Assembly: GCA_000004985.1 (NCBI GenBank)
Contig: GG738918.1
Strand: one strand, 5' to 3'
Length of the DNA stretch: 64,000 bases
Source of the DNA: Naegleria gruberi
Taxonomy: Eukaryota
Of this stretch, positions 53,657 through 57,093 are shown piece by piece. Numbering within the stretch: position 1 is the stretch's first letter; each line of letters begins with the position of its first letter. Below the pieces are notes generated by a model, which worked only from the letters and a program-made list of their open reading frames with translations, did not search any database and had not been told where the DNA came from. A program made the position numbers and the translations under genes.

Positions 53657-56600
53657 TTATTTTTTAGATTTCTTTGAAGAGGATTTTTTGAGGTTTCGTT
53701 TTCTTTTCTTGTTATCAGAAACAGCAGCAATTTCTTCAATTCCAGTCTCTTGTTCATTATCACTGTCAAAATTTTCACCTCTCTTTGCATCGTTGTAGTC
53801 GTTTAAAGATGGAGCATTTGAATTTGATGAGAAGGCAAAAGAGAATAATTGGAAACTACCAACACCATGCAAGAGCATTTGAGTTTTCAAGAAAGTATCT
53901 GCATATCTGTATCCCTTTTCGGCAACTTGTTTCCAATAAGATTCAGTCTTGTTTTTTGAAGTGAATTTCTTTAAAAACTTCTTTCTTTCGGTGTCAACAG
54001 GTTTCTTCCAAAACTCTTCATCACTAATTGAATGAATTCCCTTCATTGCTCTAATATAATAAATGTAGACTGAAGATTTGGAGTTAGAAAGAATGTGTGT
54101 TGGTTTGCTTAGACCATAAACTTTGTTTCTTGTGGTAGGATTAATTTGATAATCGTACAAGGAAACTCTACCAACATGTTGAGCTCTGTCAAACAGTTTC
54201 ACAACGTCATCAACAATTTTAAGTCCTGCAATTGTAGCATATTCAATAAAGGTATTTGGATTTTTTGCAACTTTAGCCAATGCTATTTCTCTAGAGTCAT
54301 TATTCTTAATGCTGGCAATATATTCTGTGACAGTTTCCAATAGTTTTTCTTTCATTTCATCAGTCAGTTTTTCATATTTTTCATTTTTGTCAATCTTTTT
54401 CATCAAACTGGTCAGTGAATAGGACAAGTTTTCTACCGTAAGGATACTATTTAACTTGTCGACAACCTCATTAATTTGTTTTGGAGCAAATAATTCTTCA
54501 TACAATGTATCTTCTAATTGTAAACAAGCTCTTGTCATGGCATATTTATGAGGAGTTGTAATCTTTTGATCGTGTAAATATTCATAGAAAAGTCTAATAT
54601 CATCATGCATAATAATGGCAGTTTCCATTTGAAAATGTTCACAAGTTAAGAATACACAAGTTTCAGCTCTGGCATATCCTAATTTTACATTTTCATCCAG
54701 AATTAAAAAATTATAGTTGGATTCAAAATTTGATTCCTTCAATATCTTCTTGTATCTTTCAACATAGCGACGCTCAGTTACAATGAAAAATAGATATTGT
54801 TGTTTCTCTAATTCAGTAAGAGGCGTAATCATTAGATTTGGTTTCCAATCTTCAGAATAAGAGATAGATAGCTTTTTTGATTCCCAATCAAAGGAAATGA
54901 CAGCCTCATTACTATTTGAATCACTCATATCCAACTTTTCCAATATCAGATCGCTCTTTTTCAACTTTGGAAGGGAGAATTTACTAACCGGGTCTATGGG
55001 AACGACATACTCTTTAGTTTTTAAATCTGAGACCTGACGGCTCTCAGTAATAGGAAATTTCAAACCAGAGGTTGGAGAGAGTTGAGGATTTTGTAATTTT
55101 GATTTCAAGGTAATGTCAAGAGTGCTTGATTGAGGTTTCTTTTTCTTGTAAATTTCAAGAAGATCCTTAATCTTGTCCTTTTCTGATGATTTCAAACTTT
55201 GAATTTTTTCAGTATCTCTCAAAAATTCTGAAAGCTTGTCAGCGTAATCACAAATATAATTGTAAATTTCTAAGATCAAATCGTTTTCAATTTCTTCTTC
55301 TGTTTCAGGGTTCAGCGCATTAACTAAACTTTTTACAAATTCTTCTTCCAACTCGGCTTCAATAGCAGGTAGCTTTAATTTCAGAAATGAATTCAAGTCA
55401 CTTGCCAACTCATTAGCATTCCCCTTCATTGTTTCTATTATTGCAAGAAAGTTTTTATGGAAATCTTCATATATTTCTTTCCATTCTTTTTTCTTTTCTT
55501 CTTTTTGAAATCTTGATTTTTTGCCTTTTTCTAACATTTCTTCCATGTCTGTCATATTAAAACATTCATCAATTCCCTTTTTGAAAAAATTGTACAAATT
55601 GGTGATGAATTGAATGGCTGAAAAAGCTTCATTGCCATCCATAAGAACCTCATAGGTTGGTGAAACAGTTTTTGTTTGCTCTATTTTAGCATTCAATTTT
55701 TCTAAAATGTTAGTTTTAAGGCTTGTCAATTTTTTTTTAAGATCAACTGAAGCTTCTTTCTCTTTAGTTGTCTTGCAGAGAATATTTGAAAGAATAATAA
55801 TTGCAATGTCTCTTAATCTACCACAATTATTTTCAATAATTTTGAATCTTGCTTGTTCTATTTGAGTAGAAAACTGCTTTTTGAATATTTCCGATTTGTG
55901 GTTTTTAGGTGGAAATGCAAGAACTGAAACATTGGTGCTCAAGTCTGTTACAAACTCAATCTTGTTTTCCATAAAATTGGTTTCCTCATTCTTGCAATTA
56001 TCTAACTTTTTTGCTCCTTCAATGTAAATATCGAAAAAGTTTGCTATTTGATCTCTAAAGTTGGATTTCAAGGTCTCATGATCATTTGTCAAGTCAGTAC
56101 GCTCATATTCCTTAGCATCCCCTTGCTCCTTGTCATTTACACCTATCATAATAGATGGAGCGAAAGCTTGTTTTGGTGAATAGATGCCATATTCCCAATA
56201 TTTCTTAACAAGACCATCATCAAAAATACTTCTGAAATTCTCAATTCCTGAAACAAGAATGCAAGTATCTTCCATACTTTCCTTAATGTACTGCTTATAC
56301 AAATCTGATTGGGAATGTTCATCATAACCTGGCATATCTCTTACTATAATGTTGTTTGCCAATAGATATGGCTTGGAATATACAAAATCAACTTTTTAAC
56401 TGTCAAACAATCAAATTCTCCCTTAGTCTTTTCGAAAAGTGCAATCCTTTGAAGAGCGCGCTTGCAAATTTCATCTTCACTCACAAGAGTATTATCTTTA
56501 TCAATAGTTACAGTTTCTCTCTTGAAATCATAATCTTTTGCTTCATAATTTTTAACATTGCTCTTATTGAAAAGCTTTGCTCTCAACAAGTACTCATCCT

Positions 56601-57093
56601 GAGTACACATTACCTTGGTTAGGTTATAGTGCTCTCCGTACTTTACATCAATCACAGTGGTAGTGAGTCCTTTGCCACTACATCTACCAGAAGGAAGAGG
56701 GCTGTCGTATCTACATTCAAATCCACTAATCACATTATTGATCATGAAGGATTTGCCATAACCAGGCTTGGCAAAGAACGAAATTACAACCTTTCCCTTG
56801 ATATTCTCGATTACTTTCCGCATTGCTTTGATGAAATTAGCACAATGCTTCATAACAACACCACTACTGCGATTATTATTGGTCGTAGTTTCAAAAAATT
56901 GTTCAACTTGTTCAAACAAATTAATCTCTGCTCTGATTTGATCATCTTGTCCTTTGAGAATTTTTTCTAGAGTTACCAACTCGCTCCTTCTCCTCTTAAT
57001 GGTTGAGAGAGAGGCGCTTGGAAGGGTGGCTAGTAAGGAAGAAGATGAAGACATGGCGCAGTTTTTTTTTATCTGGAATCCCCACATCATCAC
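53657..57093 (-). CDS. IRG/IIGP-like large GTPase (about 1150 aa) with a long coiled-coil C-terminal region and a basic tail. The reading frame is discontinuous near 56344-56362
   Basis: The upstream ORF 56344..57093 carries G1 FAKPGYGKSFMINNVISG, comparable to IRG GxxGxGKSSFIN. The downstream ORF 53657..56362 begins ...IIVRDMPGYDE, with DxPG as the IRG-like G3 motif. The two ORFs overlap in different frames (+1). No canonical intron of 40 nt or more fits. The closest GT..AG pair would be only 30 nt. Confidence 0.5.

What the first reader, a model, noticed from the sequence alone, without database searches (positions are those of the whole stretch)
53657..57093. IRG/IIGP-like large GTPase split by a +1 frame discontinuity that cannot be explained by a normal intron
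The G1 motif FAKPGYGKSFMINNV and the G3 motif RDMPGY resemble immunity-related GTPases (GxxGxGKSSFIN / DLPG) more than dynamin, GBP or septin. The protein continues for about 800 aa of coiled-coil-rich sequence with a lysine-rich tail. The G-domain ORF (…57093) and the rest (53657…) overlap at 56344-56362 in different frames. The only GT…AG pair that restores the frame would be a 30-nt 'intron', shorter than every other intron seen here (40-138 nt). The break could be a sequencing or assembly indel, a recent pseudogenising frameshift, or a programmed event. An IRG-type GTPase in a bacterivorous amoeba is interesting in its own right for cell-autonomous immunity.
Basis: seen in the sequence. 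Interest (0 to 1): 0.5.

Follow-up and report, generated by a model that had tools for sequence, protein, structure and literature searches.

The report
Frameshifted dynamin-like GTPase–glycosyltransferase gene in Naegleria
This is Naegleria gruberi gene NAEGRDRAFT_74876, a dynamin-like (not IRG-like) GTPase fused to a GREB1/TAGT-type glycosyltransferase, and its reading frame is broken by one missing C, which makes it most likely a recently dead gene copy or, less likely, a sequencing error.

Summary
The two minus-strand ORFs, the P-loop, the DxxG motif and the frame overlap are all real. The window is Naegleria gruberi NEG-M, and the locus is already annotated as NAEGRDRAFT_74876.

Every homolog reads straight through the break. 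tblastn places the frame switch at window base 56371: the window has CC where CCC is needed, and CCC restores ...LILYIPS-PYLLANNIIVRDMPGYDE.... A 98-99% identical contig from an independent sample has CCC at this position. No intron is involved. The public gene model hides the break behind a spurious 113-nt "intron" that removes 38 conserved residues. I found no slippery site and no RNA structure that would support programmed frameshifting.

The window copy also lacks 132 nt that encode the conserved ...PIFLITRPRG... motif. The sister-strain copies carry other frameshifts and deletions. Together these favour a recently decaying paralog (~0.6) over a base-calling error (~0.3).

The frame break itself is ordinary. 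The uncharacterised GTPase-glycosyltransferase family is the more interesting part.

The parts
53657..57054 (-). Whole gene NAEGRDRAFT_74876, from ATG 57054 to the stop at 53657-53659. It encodes 1132 aa if one C is restored.
   Evidence: The annotated model P0067 (EFC37486.1 / XP_002670230.1 / D2W0J0) is.
56371..57054 (-). Upstream reading frame, aa 1-228, ending ...KKLILYIPS.
   Evidence: tblastn frame -2 HSPs of all five homologs end at 56371.
56370..56371 (-). Lesion site. The window has CC where homologs and the sister-strain contig require CCC (AGC-CCA-TAT = S-P-Y). This is a one-base deletion, equivalent to a -1 frame shift.
   Evidence: HSPs switch frame at 56371 with consecutive query residues. 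(L002 reads TTCCAAGCCCATATC, the window TTCCAAG-CCATATC). (alignment).
56344..56346 (-). Premature TAG met in the upstream frame. As sequenced, translation would stop after 236 aa, before G3.
56372..56484 (-). Spurious 113-nt 'intron' (GTGAGT...CCAAG) used by the public gene model to bridge the frameshift. It actually encodes 38 conserved residues (VSEDEICKRALQRIALFEKTKGEFDCLTVKKLILYIPS).
   Evidence: candidate list; P0067 reads ...DKDNTL|PYLLANN...; the region aligns colinearly with invariant A200, K220, L222, L224, P227 and S228. In one search the only difference from the sister strain in this stretch is one synonymous change.
56066..56793 (-). Dynamin-superfamily GTPase domain of mitofusin/BDLP type.
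56749..56772 (-). G1 / P-loop, AKPGYGKS.
   Evidence: Invariant in the family.
56656..56676 (-). Switch I / G2 region, GKGLTTT (invariant G, G and T).
   Evidence: aligned to G2 of NUG1/GNL GTPases.
56327..56338 (-). G3, DMPG (DxxG), lying in the downstream frame.
56126..56137 (-). G4-like position, NDKE. Only the N is invariant, so this is not a canonical N/TKxD motif.
54986..55720 (-). Helical middle region, stalk-like.
   Evidence: long helices at the end of the N-terminal model. I did not model this region separately.
54848..54850 (-). Junction of a 132-nt in-frame deletion relative to the sister strain, at a GAT microhomology. The missing 44 codons encode MAK...IRLAPIFLITRPRGNWSD, which contains the family-invariant I-RPRG motif at the start of the GT-A domain.
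   Evidence: gap at invariant columns; P0014, P0068; L003 1167-1298.
53801..54847 (-). GT-A fold glycosyltransferase domain of the TAGT/GREB1 kind.
54599..54607 (-). HDD, the candidate DxD metal/sugar-nucleotide motif after a beta strand. The family consensus is DDDI.
53660..53710 (-). Basic tail KKRKRNLKKSSSKKSKK, which resembles a nuclear localisation signal.
   Evidence: Similar basic tails occur in most relatives. The NLS function is my inference.

Best explanation
The locus is Naegleria gruberi NEG-M gene NAEGRDRAFT_74876. It is one of at least six N. gruberi paralogs of an uncharacterised family.

The family architecture is:
- an N-terminal dynamin-superfamily GTPase of the mitofusin/BDLP type;
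- a helical middle region;
- a C-terminal GT-A glycosyltransferase of the TAGT/GREB1 kind;
- a basic, NLS-like tail.

The frame break is a single missing C, CC instead of CCC at 56371-56370. It is neither an intron nor a programmed event.

The lesion is most likely real and recent. As sequenced, translation from ATG 57054 stops at TAG 56346-56344 after 236 aa, which gives a G domain without G3 or G4. The same allele has also lost 132 nt that encode the conserved start of the glycosyltransferase domain. I therefore read this copy as a young pseudogene of a multi-copy family.

Inferred, not shown: in intact paralogs, GTP-driven dimerisation or assembly of the dynamin-like module would control or position the glycosyltransferase, probably in the nucleus. 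The substrate would be either modified DNA bases, as predicted for TAGT, or proteins, as shown for GREB1.
For: Identity of the locus:
- The flanking ORFs are exact matches to N. gruberi EFC37437.1 and EFC37438.1.
- The gene model is P0067 / D2W0J0.

Position and nature of the lesion:
- All five homologs read colinearly through the break.
- tblastn HSPs switch frame at 56371 with consecutive query residues.
- Contig L002, from an independent sample and 98-99% identical, has CCC at this position and encodes IPSPYLL.

Evidence for decay:
- The window has a 132-nt deletion that removes the invariant I-RPRG motif.
- Sister-strain contigs L002, L003 and L004 carry different lesions: deletions of 7, 2 and 11 nt, deletions of 201 and 359 nt, and an in-frame TAG.
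- The indel-to-substitution ratio between the two strains is about 7:31.
- Five other paralogs exist in N. gruberi.

Evidence that the lesion is recent:
- The 905-codon downstream frame is still open.
- The window copy keeps 88% of the columns that are invariant in the other five homologs, the same rate as intact members.
- Omega against the sister strain is about 0.3-0.45.

Fold and family:
- Relatives pass Pfam Dynamin_N at 43-51 bits against a cut-off of 27.
- hhalign probability to those relatives is 98.9-99.3%.
- Phage TAGT proteins are among the best viral fold matches.
- Pfam TAGT is hit by 12 of 36 relatives.
Against: - No reads or transcripts of strain NEG-M could be inspected, so a base-calling error (CCC read as CC) is not excluded.
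- Omega below 1 (P about 0.01-0.02 against neutrality) shows the gene was constrained for much of its divergence from the sister strain. That also fits an intact gene.
- The sister-strain contigs all come from one metagenome run (ERR1078381). Their large deletions lack GT-AG ends and could in part be assembly or library artefacts.
- The window protein itself hits neither Pfam Dynamin_N nor TAGT. Both assignments are transitive, through relatives and predicted folds with pLDDT 71 and 64.
- G4 is non-canonical, so GTP specificity is not established.
Confidence: 0.6

Rival explanations
1. Sequencing or assembly error. The NEG-M genome really has CCC, the gene is intact (1132 aa), and the published assembly dropped one C.
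For: - The only near-identical independent sequence has CCC.
- The downstream 905-codon frame is fully open, and conserved positions are kept at the same rate as in intact homologs.
- Omega is about 0.3-0.45, which indicates constraint.
- A single-base miscount in a short C run is a plausible base-calling error.
Against: - The same allele carries a 132-nt deletion of an invariant motif, which cannot be a base-calling error.
- The sister-strain copies are themselves broken at several other places, which shows the locus is dispensable.
- The run is only 2-3 bases long.
- From my own knowledge, not checked here, the assembly is a Sanger draft with a low indel error rate.
Confidence: 0.3
2. A real spliceosomal intron bridges the frames, for example the 113-nt GT..AG interval 56484..56372 used by the public model or the 29-nt one noticed by the first reader.
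For: - Frame-restoring GT..AG pairs exist.
- The 113-nt one has a good GTGAGT donor and was accepted by the annotators.
Against: - The interval encodes, in the upstream frame, 38 residues that align colinearly with every homolog and include six invariant positions.
- Homolog HSPs run through it up to 56371.
- Against the sister strain it differs only by one synonymous change.
- Any such splice would remove the beta strand that leads into G3.
Confidence: 0.03
3. Programmed recoding restores the frame, by -1 ribosomal frameshifting or by transcriptional slippage.
For: - The geometry is a -1 shift.
- The downstream frame is long and conserved.
Against: - No X XXY YYZ slippery heptamer is present. 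The site reads U CCA AGC C.
- There is no A or U run that could support polymerase slippage.
- The 151 nt around and after the site fold no better than shuffles, z = +0.5.
- All homologs and the sister strain encode the junction in a single frame.
Confidence: 0.02
4. The G domain belongs to the IRG/IIGP immunity-related GTPases.
For: There is a superficial motif resemblance (GxxGxGKS-F-IN and D-x-P-G). Several copies of the family also appear broken (this locus, its sister-strain copies and the N. fowleri homolog). From my own knowledge, frequent gene loss is often seen in immunity gene families.
Against: - No IIGP Pfam hit appears in this protein or in 36 relatives, whereas six relatives hit Dynamin_N.
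- The architecture with a C-terminal glycosyltransferase is unlike IRGs.
Confidence: 0.03

Closest known systems
Mitofusin / bacterial dynamin-like proteins (MFN2, Fzo1, IniA, SynDLP, Campylobacter DLP1/2) and EHD ATPases, within the dynamin superfamily
   Same: - It has a large G domain with G1 (GxxxxGKS), a switch I threonine and G3 (DxxG).
- The pattern '...IPSPxLxxxxIxxRDxPG...' leads into G3.
- Helical elements flank the G domain.
- Relatives pass Pfam Dynamin_N.
   Different: - No transmembrane or membrane-paddle region is evident.
- G4 is not N/TKxD.
- The C-terminal half is a glycosyltransferase, and the tail resembles an NLS.
- The window protein itself falls below the Pfam Dynamin_N threshold.
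TAGT (TET/JBP-associated glycosyltransferase, Pfam PF20691) and the GREB1 glycosyltransferase domain
   Same: - The fold is GT-A.
- A DxD-like HDD/DDD motif follows a beta strand.
- Phage TAGT-domain proteins are among the best viral fold matches.
- 12 of 36 relatives hit Pfam TAGT.
- GREB1-like proteins have been reported in 'Naegleria-like Heterolobosea' (PMC7968844).
   Different: - According to the review PMC6163654, GREB1 pairs its TAGT domain with a circularly permuted SFII helicase module. Here the partner is a dynamin-like GTPase.
- All Pfam TAGT scores lie just under the gathering cut-off (best 27.0 against 27.5).
- The window copy lacks the first conserved motif of the domain.
IRG/IIGP immunity-related GTPases
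   Same: It is a P-loop GTPase with a helical extension, in a family where several copies appear broken.
   Different: There is no sequence-profile or fold support, and the domain architecture is different.
Young unitary or paralogous pseudogenes masked by artificial introns in automated eukaryotic annotation
   Same: A single frameshift is bridged by a GT..AG interval that removes conserved coding sequence.
   Different: Nothing differs. This is the ordinary situation.

Membership tests
IRG / IIGP GTPases | Match to the IIGP sequence profile (Pfam PF05049) | tested here: not met
   No hit for either ORF or for the joined N-terminal 436 aa, even at E <= 10. None of the 36 relatives hit it.
IRG / IIGP GTPases | Fold closest to IIGP1/Irga6 | tested here: not met
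Dynamin superfamily (Dynamin_N, PF00350) | Match to the Dynamin_N profile above the gathering score | tested here: inconclusive
   The window protein has no hit. Relatives P0008, P0016, P0019 and P0024 score 43-51 bits against a cut-off of 27. The window's G-domain profile aligns to P0008 and P0024 with hhalign probability 99.3% and 98.9%.
Dynamin superfamily (Dynamin_N, PF00350) | Large G-domain fold with flanking helical elements, most similar to dynamin-family structures | tested here: met
Dynamin superfamily (Dynamin_N, PF00350) | G1, G2 and G3 motifs present, and G4 of the N/TKxD type | tested here: inconclusive
   G1 (AKPGYGKS), the switch I threonine and G3 (DMPG) are invariant in the family. 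At the G4 position only N is invariant (NDKE, NNPN, NDPH), so the motif is not canonical.
Dynamin superfamily (Dynamin_N, PF00350) | GTP hydrolysis stimulated by G-domain dimerisation or oligomerisation | not testable with these tools
   This needs biochemistry.
TAGT / GREB1-type glycosyltransferases (PF20691) | Match to the TAGT profile | tested here: inconclusive
   The window protein has no hit. 12 of 36 relatives hit TAGT, best E 5e-6 at 27.0 bits, just under the 27.5 cut-off.
TAGT / GREB1-type glycosyltransferases (PF20691) | GT-A (nucleotide-diphospho-sugar transferase) fold | tested here: met
TAGT / GREB1-type glycosyltransferases (PF20691) | Intact catalytic core (first strand and loop, plus the DxD motif) | tested here: not met
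   HDD is present at 54599..54607. The conserved PIF-I--RPRG segment is deleted in the window copy.
TAGT / GREB1-type glycosyltransferases (PF20691) | Sugar transfer to hydroxymethylated bases or to proteins | not testable with these tools
   This needs an enzymatic assay.
Programmed -1 ribosomal frameshift site | Slippery heptamer X XXY YYZ at the shift site | tested here: not met
   The site reads U CCA AGC CAU.
Programmed -1 ribosomal frameshift site | Stable downstream RNA structure | tested here: not met
   MFE -23 kcal/mol against a shuffle mean of -24.6, z = +0.5.
Spliceosomal intron | GT..AG interval whose removal restores the frame | tested here: met
   About 34 such intervals exist.
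Spliceosomal intron | The interval is non-coding, so homologs do not align through it | tested here: not met
   Homologs align colinearly through every candidate interval, with invariant residues, up to base 56371.
Pseudogene | Disabling lesion relative to intact homologs | tested here: met
   There is a one-base deletion and a 132-nt deletion of an invariant motif. Whether the one-base deletion exists in the organism's DNA was not testable.
Pseudogene | Relaxed selection (omega near 1) | tested here: inconclusive
   Omega is about 0.3-0.45 from 14 synonymous and 17 non-synonymous differences, P about 0.01-0.02 against neutrality. This fits only a recent loss of function.

The most novel reading that the evidence does not exclude
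The gene family behind this locus may be an undescribed class of enzyme. It has a dynamin-like GTPase, a helical stalk and a TAGT/GREB1-type GT-A glycosyltransferase with a nuclear-type basic tail.

At least six paralogs occur in N. gruberi. Other members occur in N. fowleri, N. lovaniensis and Willaertia, in the fungus Paraphysoderma and in Hydra.

In this reading, GTP-dependent assembly gates glycosylation of hydroxymethylated DNA bases (Naegleria has TET/JBP dioxygenases) or of nuclear proteins. Several copies appear broken (this locus, its sister-strain copies and the N. fowleri homolog), which might reflect a role in genetic conflict.
Probability: 0.3. Interest if true: 0.6.

Novelty: new variant of a known kind. 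Interest (0 to 1): 0.3.

Why it matters
The frame break matters little in itself. It corrects a public gene model: XP_002670230.1 lacks 38 real residues because an artificial intron hides a frameshift. It also removes the claim of an IRG-type immunity GTPase in an amoeba.

The family is of more interest. A dynamin-superfamily GTPase covalently joined to a GREB1/TAGT-type glycosyltransferase is a domain combination I could not find described in the searchable literature. Intact paralogs such as NAEGRDRAFT_80834 would let one test directly whether eukaryotic TAGT-like enzymes outside animals act on DNA or on proteins, in an organism that has TET-like dioxygenases.

Tried and rejected
- Pfam and NCBIfam scans of the two ORFs and of the joined N-terminus gave nothing usable.
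- A PDB sequence-profile search gave only weak NUG1/GNL hits (E 0.0025) and MFN2 (E 0.73) for the G domain, and a spurious AbaSI hit for the C-terminal domain.
- Exact look-ups of window proteins in the contig index failed. The organism was identified through the protein-cluster look-up instead.
- The word-indexed homolog search returned none of the near-identical proteins (P0067, P0010, P0012, P0014). They surfaced only in the exhaustive profile search and the cluster look-up.
- The intron hypothesis was rejected on colinearity with homologs.
- Programmed frameshifting was rejected for lack of a slippery site and of RNA structure.
- IRG membership was rejected.
- Literature searches found nothing for the locus tags, for PRJEB11402, or for a dynamin-TAGT fusion. 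The paper that defined TAGT (Iyer et al. 2013, NAR) is not in the held library, so I cannot rule out that it already drew this architecture.
- The afdb50 fold library was unavailable, so a direct structural comparison with GREB1 was not possible.
- An exact-pattern scan of JGI metagenomes for the junction, allowing CC or CCC, found no further copies.
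Full report
**Observation**

On the minus strand, ORF 56344..57093 (probable ATG at 57054) and ORF 53657..56362 overlap in different frames. The first carries FAKPGYGKSFMINNV and the second carries RDMPGY. The protein ends in a lysine-rich tail. These parts of the finding are correct.

Three details are not.
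- The downstream frame starts one base earlier than the upstream frame expects. Codon AGC (56373-56371) and codon CCA (56371-56369) share the C at 56371. The break is therefore a -1 shift caused by one missing base, not a +1 shift.
- An enumeration of GT..AG intervals around the break found about 34 that restore an open frame, from 17 to 197 nt.
- The C-terminal 800 aa are not all coiled coil, as shown below.

**Where the window comes from**

Five window ORFs are exact matches to Naegleria gruberi NEG-M proteins on a 222,118-bp scaffold. They include the two flanking genes: EFC37437.1 (NAEGRDRAFT_59766) at 52597..53598 and EFC37438.1 (NAEGRDRAFT_74877) at 58027..61119.

The locus itself is already annotated as NAEGRDRAFT_74876 (EFC37486.1 / XP_002670230.1 / UniProt D2W0J0), a 1094-aa 'predicted protein'. 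That model reads ...TIDKDNTL|PYLLANNIIVRDMPG.... It bridges the frame break with the 113-nt GT..AG interval 56484..56372.

**What the break is**

A homolog search with the joined protein found full-length relatives of 1130-1288 aa in N. gruberi and N. lovaniensis and in two metagenome contigs. All of them read straight through the junction. The consensus is TVKKLVLKIPSPFLKxSxIILRDMPGYDE, and the window reads TVKKLILYIPS / PYLLANNIIVRDMPGYDE.

In tblastn, every homolog's alignment leaves frame -2 and enters frame -1 at window base 56371, with consecutive query residues. One extra C would restore the frame: AGC-CCA-TAT gives S-P-Y.

The exhaustive profile search surfaced P0012, a protein from an ENA metagenome assembly (ERZ929261, run ERR1078381). 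It reads ...KKLILYIPSPYLLANNIIVRDMPGYDE.... Its contig L002 is 98-99% identical to the window at the nucleotide level. It has TTCCAAGCCCATATC where the window has TTCCAAG-CCATATC.

The break is therefore a one-base deletion in a CCC run.

**Why it is not an intron or programmed recoding**

- The annotated 'intron' encodes, in the upstream frame, 38 residues that align with all homologs and include six invariant positions.
- In that stretch the window differs from the sister strain only by one synonymous change.
- The site has no slippery heptamer and no homopolymer run that could support slippage.
- The surrounding 151 nt fold no better than shuffled sequence, z = +0.5.

**Real lesion or sequencing error**

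I could not inspect NEG-M reads, so this question stays open. The indirect evidence leans towards a real, recent lesion.

- Second lesion in the same allele. All five homologs and the sister strain have a segment (...IRLAPIFLITRPRGNWSD...) containing the invariant I-RPRG motif just before WKPNL. The window lacks exactly 132 nt there, at 54848-54850, with a GAT microhomology at the junction. In the structure model of a paralog, this region holds a helix and the first strand of the glycosyltransferase domain.
- Independent lesions in the sister strain. The contigs assembled by MEGAHIT (L002, L003), and a Logan contig (L004) from the same run, carry different lesions. These are deletions of 7, 2 and 11 nt that break the frame, an in-frame TAG on one haplotype, in-frame losses of 51 and 201 nt (the 201-nt loss removes the P-loop), and a 359-nt deletion. 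The locus therefore appears dispensable in this lineage.
- Redundancy. N. gruberi has at least five other paralogs: NAEGRDRAFT_80834, 47587, 58724, 75306 and P0004.

Some evidence points the other way.
- The 905-codon downstream frame is still open.
- The window copy keeps 88% of the columns that are invariant in the other five homologs, within their own range of 79-95%.
- The window and the sister strain differ by 14 synonymous and 17 non-synonymous changes. That gives omega of about 0.3-0.45 depending on the transition bias, with P about 0.01-0.02 against neutrality.

Loss of function, if real, must therefore be recent. My estimates are about 0.6 for a real lesion, 0.3 for an assembly error, and a few percent for everything else.

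**What the protein is: N-terminal half**

Pfam and NCBIfam find nothing in the window protein itself.

The exhaustive profile search of 1.84 billion representative proteins found only 59 relatives. Four full-length relatives (P0008 from Willaertia, P0016 and P0024 from N. gruberi, and P0019) pass Pfam Dynamin_N at 43-51 bits against a cut-off of 27. The window's G-domain profile aligns to P0008 and P0024 with hhalign probabilities of 99.3% and 98.9%.

G1, the switch I threonine and G3 are invariant in the family. At the G4 position only an asparagine is conserved, so nucleotide specificity is not settled.

**What the protein is: C-terminal half**

The family-wide motifs are LGxG, DDD(I)xxFxEY, GQVxLWN, THxxS, GIHPVSD, GYxxxD and GVxGF. 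The window copy retains its versions of all of them (LGYA, HDDI..FYEY, GRVSLYD, THILS, GIHSISD, GYRYAD, GVGSF); only the first conserved segment, which contains RPRG, is missing.

Shin et al. 2021 (PMC7968844) note GREB1-like proteins in 'Naegleria-like Heterolobosea'. According to the review PMC6163654, GREB1 combines its TAGT domain with a circularly permuted SFII helicase module, not with a GTPase.

Most members, including this one, end or begin with a basic KKRK-type tract. I read this as a nuclear localisation signal, which is an inference.

**How it most likely works**

Shown:
- The ancestral product was one polypeptide of about 1170 aa.
- It had a dynamin-type G domain, a helical middle region and a TAGT-like GT-A domain.

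Inferred:
- Nucleotide-dependent dimerisation or assembly of the G domain, as in mitofusins and bacterial dynamin-like proteins, would control or position the glycosyltransferase.
- This probably happens in the nucleus.
- The substrate would be either hydroxymethylated DNA bases (the prediction for TAGT) or proteins (as shown for GREB1).

In the NEG-M copy as sequenced, translation ends after 236 aa, before G3. Even if the frame were restored, the glycosyltransferase would lack its first conserved element.

**Verdict**

The frame break is ordinary. It is a single-base deletion in an already annotated gene, most likely a young pseudogene of a multi-copy family or otherwise an assembly error. 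The IRG interpretation is refuted.

The residual interest lies in the uncharacterised dynamin-TAGT architecture. I could not find it described in the searchable literature.

Noticed in passing
window 56372..56484 (-): The public RefSeq/GenBank model XP_002670230.1 / EFC37486.1 hides the frameshift behind an artificial 113-nt intron. It therefore lacks 38 conserved residues of the G domain.
   Followed up: yes
L002 (ENA ERZ929261 k127_277221) against window 56561..56761 and 55858..56216: The sister-strain contig skips 201 nt (in frame, removing the P-loop and switch I) and 359 nt. Neither junction has GT..AG ends. I could not tell whether these are real deletions, a second decayed copy or library chimeras.
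   Followed up: partly
L003 and L004 (same run ERR1078381) against window 53554..56097: Two haplotypes about 99% identical to each other are present in that sample. One has an in-frame TAG inside the 132-nt segment and the other does not. Both share the 7-nt and 11-nt frameshifting deletions.
   Followed up: partly
Relatives P0006 and P0069 (N. fowleri FDP41_003141/003142) and P0070 (CAG4707742.1): The N. fowleri homolog is split into two adjacent gene models in one annotation. In another it is fused to an unrelated upstream ORF. It may be broken as well, or the assembly may carry indel errors.
   Followed up: no
Relatives P0031 (Hydra vulgaris LOC101240012), P0015 (Paraphysoderma sedebokerense) and P0008 (Willaertia magna): The same GTPase-plus-TAGT-like architecture turns up in a cnidarian and a fungus as well as in Heterolobosea. 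Many short metagenomic proteins carry only the C-terminal domain. The distribution is patchy.
   Followed up: partly
window 53660..53710 and the termini of relatives: Nearly every family member has a basic KKRK/KRKK tract at one end, which suggests nuclear targeting.
   Followed up: no
window 47194..52164 (+), 58027..61119 (+) and 61315..63693 (+): The neighbouring genes are a periplasmic-binding-protein plus adenylate/guanylate cyclase fusion, a CNH/Vps39/DUF4116/protein-kinase protein, and an EGF-repeat protein. None has an obvious functional link to the GTPase gene.
   Followed up: no
tool behaviour: The word-indexed homolog search did not return the near-identical entries (the gene's own model P0067 and the fragments P0010, P0012 and P0014). 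They appeared only in the exhaustive representative search and the cluster look-up. Relying on the first search alone would have missed the decisive CCC evidence.
   Followed up: yes
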